Part shown: positions 3,930 through 8,866 of the stretch, in pieces
Layout: every line of letters starts with the position of its first letter
Numbering within the stretch: the first letter of the stretch is position 1
Origin: a virus
Lineage: Duplodnaviria; Caudoviricetes
IMG/VR virus record: IMGVR_UViG_3300022930_000022
Coordinates: 1 to 36,057 of that record
DNA length: 36,057 nt
Strand: one strand, 5' to 3'
Program-made: the position numbers and the translations under genes
The notes under the pieces: model-generated
The model's database searches: none
What the model was told of the DNA's origin: nothing
The model's input: the letters and a program-made list of their open reading frames with translations, nothing else

Positions 3930-4142
3930 ATGAAAACTTACACTATCAAAAACTACAGCGGTCAAAAAACATTAATAGTTAACGATTTAATTAATGCAGA
4001 TGTTAAATCTTTATATAAACAAGCTATATCTAAAAGTATTGCTTTTGCAGTTAAACAAGAAATAGGAATACAAATATGGGGTTTATTGAAAGTAGCATCT
4101 TATTTAGGCGTTCAAGATTCAAGCAAGCTATTCAATGACTAA
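3930..4142 (+). CDS. Hypothetical protein
   Basis: First ORF after the rightward promoter. Confidence 0.75.
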   Translation: MKTYTIKNYSGQKTLIVNDLINADVKSLYKQAISKSIAFAVKQEIGIQIWGLLKVASYLGVQDSSKLFND

Positions 4143-7907: not shown

Positions 7908-8002
7908 AACTTTGTGCTACCAAATACTTTTCTCACCTTTATACCAGAGCGTTTAATTTAAGTAGATCGTAGCTACTATGGAGTTAGAGTTTCGATAAGG
8001 TT

Positions 8003-8072
8003 TACACGGTAGCTCAGTTGGTAGAGCGGGCTTAACAAAGCTAGGTCGGGGATTCGAGTTCCTCCTGTGTAG
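8003..8072 (+). tRNA. tRNA-like gene with a shortened anticodon arm (isotype undetermined)
   Basis: Acceptor TACACGG/CTGTGTA, D arm GCTC-AGTTGGTA-GAGC, T arm GGGGA-TTCGAGT-TCCTC; anticodon arm GGCTTAACAAAGCT is 14 nt instead of 17; no encoded CCA. Confidence 0.8.
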
Positions 8073-8073
8073 C

Positions 8074-8350
8074 AAACATAGTACATTGACACTCTAGTGA
8101 AGTTAGTCCGGACGAGGGTTCGATTCCCTCCACCTCCACCAAAAATGCTAAGCGTAGTTACTTAGCGCCAAAGAAAAGGATTGATTGATGATCGCCTTTT
8201 CTAAACTTAATGGGGGTGCCTGGTTTTGACGGATTAATAAGTAGTTAGAGTAGAGTAAGATGTTTAATTTCAACTGGCAAAGTTGTACAAATGTTTAGTC
8301 CATCGCTTAGAGCGGTAGCATAAACAGCCCGAAGGGAGCTAAATCCCTTC
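8074..8350 (+). ncRNA. ssrA: Circularly permuted (two-piece) tmRNA: acceptor piece about 8074-8141, intervening segment 8142-8211, coding piece from 8212
   Basis: 3'-end motif GGACGAGGGTTCGATTCCCTCCACCTCCACCA comes before the 5'-end motif GGGGGTGCCTGGTTTTGAC; acceptor stem has G3:U70; helix-2 pairs GGATTAA/TTAGTCC and TTAGAGT/ACTCTAG; tag ORF present. Outer ends are approximate. Confidence 0.9.
8276..8323 (+). other. tmRNA tag reading frame (A)GKVVQMFSPSLRAVA*
   Basis: Resume context TCAACT|GGC followed by 15 codons and TAA; small nonpolar C-terminus. Confidence 0.75.
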
Positions 8351-8355
8351 AATTT

Positions 8356-8408
8356 GGGGCGTGACGTGGTAACCAGTCCAGCGTATAACATCGAAAGTGG
8401 GCGCTCCA
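8356..8408 (+). ncRNA. Small structured RNA closed by an Ala-type acceptor stem
   Basis: GGGGCGT/GCGCTCC-A with G:U at the third pair; two internal hairpins. Confidence 0.45.
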
Positions 8409-8510
8409 CAAAGTCCTTGTTAATAACGGTAATAGTAATTTATTCTAAATAGAATTGTTGACAAAGCTATTATTGTAACGCAAGGCAAACATTTGGTTAA
8501 GTTTAGATTG

Positions 8511-8540
8511 GCGGGTAGGTGTAGTGCCCTACCCGTTTTT
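8511..8540 (+). terminator. Intrinsic terminator ending the RNA cluster
   Basis: GCGGGTAGG-N8-CCTACCCGT followed by a T run. Confidence 0.75.
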
Positions 8541-8557
8541 AAAGAGAAGAAAACAGC

Positions 8558-8866
8558 ATGAGATCAGCACAAGAAATATACGATAATACGCCATTTGAGG
8601 ATGAGAACGGTTTAATTCCGCACGATAAGTTAGCGGTTAAAGTGGCTGAAGAATACGCGGGACAGTTTAATCAATGGGTGAGTGTAGCCTATGGTCTGCC
8701 AGAAACATTAGATAATATTATTTGCTGCATGAAAAATGGATATATTGTTCAACTTACTTACGGCAGGATGTCTGGTTTCTTTGATCCAAAGTCTCGTAGA
8801 CCTGTTAGCAAAAATAACCCTGTAACCCATTGGATGCCATTACCTAACCCACCTCAACCATGCTAA
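8558..8866 (+). CDS. DUF551-like phage protein
   Basis: WVSV...LP and VTHWMPLPNPP signature. Confidence 0.8.
   Translation: MRSAQEIYDNTPFEDENGLIPHDKLAVKVAEEYAGQFNQWVSVAYGLPETLDNIICCMKNGYIVQLTYGRMSGFFDPKSRRPVSKNNPVTHWMPLPNPPQPC

What the first reader, a model, noticed from the sequence alone, without database searches (positions are those of the whole stretch)
8074..8350. Phage-encoded, circularly permuted and minimised two-piece tmRNA
Seen: the tmRNA 3' end (T arm, CACCTCC-A-CCA, ending 8141) lies upstream of the 5' end (GGGGGTG at 8212). A 70 nt spacer with two hairpins separates them (GCTAAG/CTTAGC 8147-8166; AGAAAAGG/CCTTTTCT 8172-8202). The pieces pair through the acceptor stem with G3:U70, GGATTAA/TTAGTCC, TTAGAGT/ACTCTAG and possibly ATGTTT(8260)/AAACAT(8074). 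Only about 25 nt separate helix 2 from the resume codon, and I find no pseudoknots. Established: permuted ssrA is known from Alphaproteobacteria and some cyanobacteria and betaproteobacteria, whereas typical Bacteroidota ssrA is one-piece. Inference: an independent permutation giving a pseudoknot-free ribosome-rescue RNA (about 200 nt mature) that uses host SmpB and AlaRS. I cannot tell whether this lineage is already catalogued.
Basis: partly seen in the sequence, partly recalled or inferred. Interest (0 to 1): 0.9.

Follow-up and report, generated by a model that had tools for sequence, protein, structure and literature searches.

The report
Compact two-piece tmRNA in Bacteroidota phage
This phage, which likely infects Bacteroidota, carries a real back-to-front, half-sized gene for tmRNA (the RNA that frees stalled ribosomes) with no room for the usual first knot but a predicted tiny knot after its stop codon; sister genes are already labelled in public phage records, so it is an undescribed variant of a known kind.

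Summary
Observation confirmed: a circularly permuted tmRNA at 8074-8350 (Rfam RF04321, 64.2 bits, cut-off 47) in a 36-kb HK97-type phage with Bacteroidota promoter signals. It belongs to a compact phage-borne class: 63 distinct copies collected, 33 non-redundant. The resume codon lies 54-65 nt after the 5' G (77 or more in the comparison tmRNAs), so pseudoknot 1 is absent; the inter-piece helices covary. One correction: it is not pseudoknot-free. A small H-type pseudoknot follows the stop codon (22 of 33 members; controls about 7), and a kink-turn-like junction joins the pieces. It is not new to records: RefSeq crAss-like phages and the cultured Maribacter phage Panino carry the same type, annotated as SsrA, and 13 crAss phages are listed as 'Permuted' in a 2022 table; my 8 paper searches found no description of the class. 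The scan noted this class before in at least 25 other genomes. Origin is open: the tRNA-like part matches Bacteroidota one-piece ssrA (33 of 33), while the kink and terminal knot match other permuted tmRNAs. Processing and tagging are untested. New variant of a known kind.

The parts
8003..8072 (+). tRNA-like element whose anticodon loop is cut to 4 nt; its 3' end abuts the acceptor piece and likely supplies that piece's 5' end
   Evidence: Rfam tRNA 43 bits, cut-off 29; not called by ARAGORN; cloverleaf centroid; paired change at 8031/8040 keeps the stem in contigs of runs X2-X4. Processing role inferred.
8074..8141 (+). Acceptor piece (about 68 nt): 3' strands of the three inter-piece helices, T arm, acceptor 3' strand, discriminator A8138, encoded CCA
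   Evidence: Sequence, RF04321 alignment, folds; 5' end inferred
8082..8089 (+). Acceptor side of a kink-turn-like junction (3-bp stem, 3-nt bulge, GA); partner GA plus stem at 8253-8257
   Evidence: Motif in 18 of 33 class members, 4.3 in base-shuffled and 8.9 in partner-swapped controls; structure itself untested
8142..8211 (+). Intervening spacer, predicted to be removed; two hairpins
   Evidence: Fold; hairpin 1 has a compensatory change in L195, hairpin 2 is kept in L175/L177/L178/L190/L195; spacer length 13-211 nt across the class
8212..8350 (+). Coding piece (about 139 nt): acceptor 5' strand, D-loop mimic, 5' strands of the helices, tag frame, terminal pseudoknot
   Evidence: 3' end inferred
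8276..8323 (+). Tag reading frame, (A)GKVVQMFSPSLRAVA-stop
   Evidence: Same frame and similar peptides in relatives; stop aligns with the end of RF04321
8326..8350 (+). Predicted small H-type pseudoknot: stem 1 8326-8328/8338-8340, stem 2 8331-8337/8344-8350, loops 2 and 3 nt
   Evidence: Stem 1 of 3 or more Watson-Crick pairs in 22 of 33 members vs 6.5 and 7.0 in two controls, 0 of 2000 rounds reaching it; pair counts
8355..8409 (+). Second stem ending in CC-A-CA; right boundary of the exchangeable cassette
   Evidence: Fold not better than shuffles, z -0.27; joint 8076-8409 in a sister contig
8510..8540 (+). Hairpin plus T run, likely terminator of the RNA operon
   Evidence: z -3.75; not listed by the consensus scan

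Best explanation
The phage carries a back-to-front tmRNA gene that is predicted to be cut into a 68-base and a 139-base piece, which pair along a tRNA-like core and likely rescue stalled ribosomes with the host's proteins, adding a short tag. Steps: (1, inferred) one transcript runs through a tRNA-like element, the acceptor piece, the spacer and the coding piece to a terminator near 8540; (2, inferred from known two-piece tmRNAs) host RNase P cuts before G8212 and 3' trimming exposes CCA at 8141, while maturation of the upstream tRNA-like element makes the acceptor's 5' end; (3, shown in sequence and by covariation) the pieces pair through the acceptor stem and three helices; (4, inferred) host alanyl-tRNA synthetase charges it via G3.U70/A73, host SmpB and EF-Tu deliver it; (5, inferred) translation resumes at 8276 and adds AGKVVQMFSPSLRAVA. 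With the ring open and pseudoknot 1 gone, a kink-turn-like bend would aim the tag frame and the helix-5-like hairpin plus mini-pseudoknot would stand in for the helix 5/pseudoknot 2 anchor or cap the free 3' end. The gene is an optional cassette in a tRNA array, likely a spare for host tmRNA during infection.
For: RF04321 over cut-off; 19 of 20 tested relatives also over cut-off. All 24 viral hits of a pattern that held only the coding piece had the acceptor piece upstream. In 63 distinct copies: G1-C72, G2-C71, G3.U70, A73 invariant, 0 mismatches in 7 x 63 acceptor pairs, four-way covariation at pair 5. Own-partner duplexes are more stable than swapped ones in 33 non-redundant members, also for the most distal helix alone (-7.0 vs -3.8 kcal/mol; 0 of 20000 permutations; window ranks first in all three tests). 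Open tag frames of 10-17 codons with small non-polar or Ser-Ala ends and tmRNA-like upstream context in 33 of 33. The acceptor piece is preceded by a TAnnTTTG box at 39-48 nt (9 of 33; background 0.02 per window) or a tRNA T-loop (8 of 33), 16 of 33 in all. Review PMC8012679 (passages): pseudoknot 2 and helix 5 anchor tmRNA at the mRNA entrance throughout trans-translation. PMC11915505: permuted transcripts are cut by tRNA processing enzymes.
Against: No RNA, processing, charging or tagging data for any member. Loss of pseudoknot 1 could impair activity (role of PK1 recalled, no call). The own partner was the best of 33 in only 7-8 of 33 members. The helix-5-like hairpin beats synonymous recodings in only 8 of 33, not in the window (p 0.32). 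In a MAFFT alignment of 17 hand-picked members stem 1 of the pseudoknot is only 59.6% paired because variable loop lengths put it out of register; 11 of 33 members have no 3-bp stem 1 by the automatic rule, and a few of the 22 calls sit on a different hairpin. The gene is dispensable: 1 of 50 capsid-related records has it, 0 of 13 near-complete.
Confidence: 0.72

Rival explanations
1. Origin A: an independent (fourth) permutation of a Flavobacteriales/Sphingobacteriales-type one-piece ssrA inside phages, followed by loss of pseudoknot 1; kink and terminal knot arose by convergence.
For: tRNA-like domain nearest to Bacteroidia-type one-piece genes in 33 of 33 (mean identity 0.83 vs 0.74 for other phage permuted genes, 0.60 for alpha T-loop genes); 19-nt 5' segment, TTTGAC and TTT|GGAC signatures shared. 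Tree groups the class with Bacteroidota one-piece genes at 96/96. Resume context and some tags are host-like (GEQVELAMAA, GNNYEMRAAA). Below the cut-offs of the alpha, beta and cyano models.
Against: Only 6 non-redundant Bacteroidia references (my pattern kept 10 of 23 fetched genes; the 13 dropped include 20-nt-type genes); tree has 113 columns for 99 rows, 45 open forks, one other phage permuted gene inside the group, and the class is not one clade. Distal features point elsewhere (next rival).
Confidence: 0.5
2. Origin B: a descendant of the widespread alpha/beta-like phage two-piece tmRNAs that lost pseudoknot 1 and took on the host's tRNA-like domain by recombination or adaptation (a chimera, no new permutation).
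For: Helix 2b/2c junction nearest to other permuted genes in 29 of 33; strict kink-turn motif at the same register in 35 of 42 other phage permuted genes and 21 of 46 alpha T-loop genes but 2 of 6 and 1 of 13 one-piece genes; same post-stop pseudoknot layout with a 3-bp stem 1 in 28 of 35 and 22 of 36 of those sets; similar opening point.
Against: Needs replacement of both halves of the tRNA-like domain and the resume region; Bacteroidia one-piece genes already carry the acceptor-side GTA-GA at the same register; the junction strings compared are only 21 nt and were anchored on GA, which inflates identity.
Confidence: 0.4
3. Function rival: the RNA is processed and charged but acts against the host system, soaking up SmpB or releasing ribosomes with a tag that host proteases read poorly, so phage proteins escape degradation.
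For: A tRNA-domain-only tmRNA of phage DS6A inhibits endogenous tmRNA (PMC4131195 passages; PMC11915505). Tags are longer than and unlike host GENNYALAA-type tags.
Against: Tag frame, stop codon, resume context and Ala/Val-Ala ends are conserved in 33 of 33, which a pure decoy would not need.
Confidence: 0.18
4. A relic or integration-site fragment of a host ssrA without function.
For: Patchy presence among close relatives.
Against: Both halves are complete and covary; no bacterial genome hit of this type among 7 GTDB pattern matches; no integrase hit among the 37 proteins scanned.
Confidence: 0.04

Closest known systems
Permuted tmRNA, Rfam RF04321 (merging alpha RF01849, beta RF01850, cyano RF01851; PMC11915505)
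   Same: Gene order, tRNA-like domain, spacer, tag frame; 64.2 bits over the 47 cut-off. A post-stop pseudoknot with 3-bp stem 1 is also seen in my alpha-type sets.
   Different: Fits none of the three subtype models (beta 47.1 vs cut-off 84); resume codon at 54-65 nt vs 77-119, so no pseudoknot 1; about 207 nt; Bacteroidia-type tRNA-like domain; found here only in viral records.
SsrA genes annotated in crAss-like phages cr50_1 and cr10_1 (RefSeq NC_055868, NC_055875; 'Permuted' in PMC9004378 Table S1)
   Same: Same compact permuted layout, resume at 59-61 nt, same 19-nt 5' segment.
   Different: Different tags (GNNFVTDY...), no canonical kink-turn match, longer spacers, much larger genomes; only labelled, not analysed, in what I read.
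SsrA of Maribacter phage Panino (PP540027; PMC11590407)
   Same: Closest cultured member: permuted, RF04321 62.2 bits, tag GKVMNVSFAPTVRQFA, tRNA directly upstream, kink motif and mini-pseudoknot.
   Different: 77-kb podovirus with 20 tRNAs; the passages I saw mention one SsrA gene without noting permutation.
Two-piece tmRNA of Methylophilales phage Melnitz and other aquatic phages (PMC9004378)
   Same: Phage-encoded, permuted, accessory; 53 two-piece calls among 133 phage tmRNA structures.
   Different: Those described are alpha- or cyano-type; the comparable IMG/VR genes keep 77 nt or more before the resume codon.
One-piece ssrA of Bacteroidota
   Same: Nearly the same tRNA-like domain and resume context in the 19-nt-type genes.
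   Different: One piece, 347-405 nt, resume at 90-103 nt, 9-10-residue tags.

Membership tests
Permuted tmRNA (RF04321) | Score above the family cut-off | tested here: met
   64.2 vs 47 bits
Permuted tmRNA (RF04321) | 3' half of the tRNA-like domain upstream of the 5' half, spacer between | tested here: met
   8074-8141, 8142-8211, 8212 onward
Permuted tmRNA (RF04321) | Alanine identity: G3.U70, A73, CCA | tested here: met
   Window sequence; G3.U70 and A73 in 63 of 63; CCA encoded in the window but in only 3 of 63 copies
Permuted tmRNA (RF04321) | Tag frame with resume context and stop | tested here: met
   8276-8323; conserved in relatives
Permuted tmRNA (RF04321) | Transcript processed into two paired RNAs; charged; binds SmpB; tags proteins | not testable with these tools
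   Pairing supported by covariation; the rest needs experiments
Alpha/beta/cyano subtypes (RF01849-RF01851) | Score above subtype cut-off | tested here: not met
   Best is beta 47.1 vs 84; 0 of 20 relatives pass any subtype cut-off
Alpha/beta/cyano subtypes (RF01849-RF01851) | Structured region (pseudoknot 1 or hairpin) between helix 2 and the resume codon | tested here: not met
   About 10 unpaired nt; resume offset 54-65 vs 77-119. That PK1 is typical of these subtypes is recalled.
Kink-turn motif | Canonical stem, 3-nt bulge, tandem G.A/A.G pairs (consensus recalled) | tested here: met
   Window and 18 of 33 members at a fixed register; controls 4.3 and 8.9
Kink-turn motif | Kinked 3D fold or L7Ae binding | not testable with these tools
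   Needs probing or structure
H-type pseudoknot | Loop bases pair with a segment outside the hairpin, with covariation and feasible loop lengths | tested here: met
   22 of 33 vs 6.5-7.0; 13 different stem-1 pairings; loops 2 and 3 nt in the window; weaker in the free alignment
Helix 5 of tmRNA | Selected hairpin overlapping the end of the tag frame | tested here: inconclusive
   Predicted in most members, but p <= 0.05 against synonymous recodings in only 8 of 33

The most novel reading that the evidence does not exclude
A fourth, phage-only origin of two-piece tmRNA, derived from the Bacteroidota host gene: a natural ~205-nt ribosome-rescue RNA that still tags proteins without pseudoknot 1, using a kink-turn and a 25-nt pseudoknot, spread from 36-kb siphoviruses to gut crAss-like phages as a swappable cassette in tRNA arrays.
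Probability: 0.4. Interest if true: 0.7.

Novelty: new variant of a known kind. Interest (0 to 1): 0.5.

Why it matters
If active, this is a natural minimal tmRNA with a tag frame: it would show which parts trans-translation really needs (no pseudoknot 1, but a bend in helix 2 and a knot behind the stop codon), and bear on why two-piece tmRNAs arose repeatedly. It is testable now, because a cultured phage-host pair (Maribacter phage Panino) carries the same type. It also matters for annotation: ARAGORN called only 9 of 24 such loci and gave the right tag in 6. It is not a new kind of system: phage two-piece tmRNAs are published and sister genes are labelled in RefSeq.

Tried and rejected
Chance match: rejected. 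ARAGORN's ends and tag for the window (8049-8677, VVPYPF...): rejected, the frame at 8276 is conserved. 'Pseudoknot-free': rejected for the 3' end. Phage-encoded SmpB: 0 hits in the record, 90% complete. blastn of the locus against 50,697 phage records gave only short T-arm and tRNA matches, none over 14% of the query; the cultured member was found with a relative as query. Cellulophaga phage Calle_1 tmRNA is one-piece, 360 nt. Cellulophaga phi4:1, listed as Permuted in PMC9004378 Table S1, gave only 15.6 bits with RF04321: not confirmed. GTDB pattern scan: 7 hits, 0 of this class, 1 a one-piece tmRNA; an exact-pattern scan can miss divergent copies. Two sub-cut-off RF04321 hits in Bacteroidota genomes were one-piece genes. 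Genome-wide count of TAnnTTTG is not enriched (51 vs 46.6); only its position upstream of genes is. No RNA holder listed among sequencing runs. First metagenome pattern was mis-written and found nothing. Endolysin homolog search gave no host names. Searching the tmRNA database supplement for phage or taxon names gave 0 hits because rows are named by accession and the file is cut; its Table S2 and sequence list were not seen, so whether these genes are among its 79 phage entries is open. Sharkady and Williams 2004 (PMC516066) is not held; Mao et al. 2009 was not read; either could describe relevant structures.

Full report
Setting. The window is a whole IMG/VR virus record of 36,057 nt, linear, estimated 90% complete. 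Of 37 proteins scanned against PHROGs, hits include small and large terminase, portal, head protease, major head protein, tail proteins, endolysin and an exonuclease: an HK97-type tailed phage. The host is likely in Bacteroidota: the best capsid matches among 50,697 phage records are Flavobacterium and Cellulophaga phages (30-33% identity), the best named terminase matches are Parabacteroides, Bacteroides and Phocaeicola phages (33-35%), the TAnnTTTG promoter box (motif recalled) lies within 60 nt upstream of 10 of 50 hand-picked ORFs against 1.9 expected, and only 2 of 50 have a Shine-Dalgarno-like word. The best-holding public runs are leaf-litter metagenomes, one of which may be the source.

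The observation. Every element quoted is at its coordinates. Rfam's permuted tmRNA model RF04321 matches 8081-8323 at 64.2 bits against a cut-off of 47; the beta subtype model reaches 47.1 of 84. The minimum-energy fold of 8074-8352 gives the acceptor stem, T arm, three inter-piece helices, both spacer hairpins, a long hairpin over the tag frame and a terminal hairpin; z is -3.96. The tag frame is 8276-8323, GKVVQMFSPSLRAVA. ARAGORN calls a permuted tmRNA but with wrong ends and tag.

Relatives. Of 50 viral records with a related capsid protein only 1 (G001, 86% capsid identity) has the gene, and 0 of the 13 near-complete ones; its copy has a nearly identical tag and compensatory changes in the acceptor stem. 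A pattern holding only the 5' end and the start of the tag found 24 IMG/VR loci, and all 24 had the T arm and acceptor 3' strand upstream. Three patterns spanning the spacer added 19, 46 and 8 loci, partly the same contigs. Together with three GenBank genes this gave 64 distinct copies (63 with enough flank), 33 after filtering at 70% identity. In all 33 the resume codon lies 54-65 nt after the 5' G, against 77-119 in 36 other phage permuted genes, 80-100 in 38 genes with an alpha-type T-loop and 90-103 in Bacteroidota one-piece genes. These patterns select a 2-nt D-loop spacing but not compactness, so the uniform short distance is a result. 19 of 20 tested members pass the RF04321 cut-off and 0 of 20 pass a subtype cut-off. 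A looser pattern suggests about 370 viral stretches with permuted tmRNA for one spacer range alone, of which 119 were listed and nearly all are of the longer type.

Covariation. Across 63 copies the acceptor stem has no mismatch, G3.U70 and A73 are invariant and pair 5 takes five forms. Duplexes of each acceptor arm with its own coding arm are more stable than with others, also for the most distal helix alone (0 of 20,000 permutations), though the own partner is the single best in only 7-8 of 33; the window's is best in all three tests. Relatedness among members is not fully removed by the 70% filter.

First, behind the stop codon three bases (8326-8328) can pair with the loop (8338-8340) of the terminal hairpin (8331-8350), an H-type pseudoknot with loops of 2 and 3 nt. 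With the hairpin chosen blind to this pairing, 22 of 33 members show 3 or more Watson-Crick pairs, in 13 different sequence forms, against 6.5 (shuffled) and 7.0 (swapped), 0 of 2000 rounds reaching 22 (a looser first version gave 25 of 33 vs 10.2 and 12.4). A few of those calls lie on other hairpins. On a free alignment of 17 members that I picked, stem 2 is 80.7% and stem 1 59.6% paired, the latter partly out of register. A short contig in run X3 keeps stem 1 with a different stem 2 (loose end; read by eye). Second, the junction of the two distal helices fits the kink-turn consensus (8082-8089 with 8253-8257) in 18 of 33 members, against 4.3 and 8.9 in controls; the lead came from an earlier scan note. 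A review states that pseudoknot 2 and helix 5 stay bound at the mRNA entrance and anchor tmRNA (PMC8012679, passages), which fits keeping this part while pseudoknot 1 is lost; that link is my inference. Evidence for selection on the helix-5-like hairpin is weak (8 of 33).

Expression context. A tRNA-like element with a 4-nt anticodon loop (8003-8072, 43 bits) ends where the acceptor piece starts; contigs from three other runs carry a paired change in its anticodon stem. Across the class 9 of 33 have a TAnnTTTG box 39-48 nt before the conserved GGAC and 8 of 33 a tRNA T-loop 54-65 nt before it (16 of 33 either; the regex missed the window's and Panino's tRNAs), so the acceptor piece probably starts at a promoter or at a tRNA 3' end. 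In run X2 one contig that is nearly identical on both flanks joins 8076 to 8409 with 87 other letters between: the gene is an exchangeable cassette. The record has no SmpB gene.

Hosts and origin. In genomes drawn from the phylum of a Sphingobacterium genome, 57 of 61 have a one-piece tmRNA and 0 of 151 a permuted one over cut-off; a GTDB-wide exact-pattern scan gave 7 hits, none of this class. The tRNA-like domain is nearest to Bacteroidia-type one-piece genes in 33 of 33 members, and a 99-row, 113-column tree joins the class with Bacteroidota one-piece genes at 96/96, but with many open forks, only 6 such references and without making the class one clade. Against this, the distal junction is nearest to other permuted genes in 29 of 33, the kink motif is in 35 of 42 other phage permuted genes but 3 of 19 one-piece genes, and the same terminal pseudoknot layout occurs in 28 of 35 and 22 of 36 genes of the two permuted comparison sets, with a longer loop. 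My alpha set was defined by a T-loop motif in metagenome contigs and 13 of its 46 members look phage-borne. So an independent permutation is plausible (about 0.5) but a host-adapted chimera of an older permuted lineage is nearly as likely (about 0.4).

What is known. PMC11915505 (parts 1-3 of 5 of the text, two parts of the supplement) defines the permuted form, names three bacterial clades, counts 79 bacteriophage sequences from RefSeq viruses and does not discuss a Bacteroidota-phage class in the parts read; its Table S2 was not available. PMC9004378 (passages and all of Table S1) reports 53 two-piece calls in phages and lists 13 crAss phages and Cellulophaga phi4:1 as Permuted. I checked two of the 13, cr50_1 and cr10_1: both are the compact type and annotated as SsrA in RefSeq. 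Maribacter phage Panino carries a close member, annotated in GenBank; its paper mentions one SsrA gene only (PMC11590407, passages). PMC4131195 and PMC10085705 (passages) and PMC6235969 (one reference hit) add nothing on the class. Eight full-text searches (listings seen) found no description of a compact or pseudoknot-1-less Bacteroidota-phage tmRNA; subscription papers, including the original two-piece papers, are not covered. The scan's notes record this class in at least 25 other genomes.

Verdict. Real, a member of the permuted tmRNA family but of none of its three described subtypes. Most likely a working minimal ribosome-rescue RNA that depends on host factors (0.72). New variant of a known kind; interest 0.5, because the genes are already labelled, while the minimal architecture, the overlooked 3' knot and the open origin are worth a direct test.

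Noticed in passing
window 8003-8072: tRNA-like element with a 4-nt anticodon loop, kept by a compensatory change in related contigs; similar defective or half tRNAs flank the tmRNA in L175, L178, L198 and L212. Could be processing signals or nuclease decoys.
   Followed up: partly
window 8076-8409: A sister contig (run X2) replaces this stretch with 87 other letters; the cassette ends at tRNA-type CA ends, suggesting exchange by recombination at short shared ends.
   Followed up: partly
window, upstream of ORFs at 3930, 16282, 19740, 23542, 25372, 25422, 26228, 34829 and others: TAnnTTTG boxes, often TATATTTG and in divergent pairs, with small + strand genes inserted between - strand virion genes; an earlier scan note (e1-10427314) covers this.
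   Followed up: partly
L212, L213, L238, L243 (crAss-like members): The acceptor piece starts with a covarying hairpin whose loop could pair with the coding piece just before the resume region, a crAss-specific extra pseudoknot or kissing pair (seen by eye).
   Followed up: no
L193 516-706: Member with a spacer of only 13 nt, followed by a DUF805b RNA match at 754-788 (44.7 bits, cut-off 35.6).
   Followed up: no
L228, L269: Members whose 10-residue tags look like host Bacteroidota tags; possible early-branching or recently recombined forms useful for the origin question.
   Followed up: no
L212 1550-1770, L213 1600-1700: Spacers of crAss members contain T-arm-like elements, recalling the tRNA inside a spacer noted in PMC11915505.
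   Followed up: no
window 7911-7941: Weak Bacteroidota-type promoter candidate (TTTG, 19 nt, 6-of-8 box) upstream of the RNA operon.
   Followed up: no
L201 / G054: A 0.7-Mb genome labelled Bdellovibrionales has a one-piece tmRNA with a 21-residue tag next to an smpB-like gene; size and tag suggest the label may be off (my impression).
   Followed up: no
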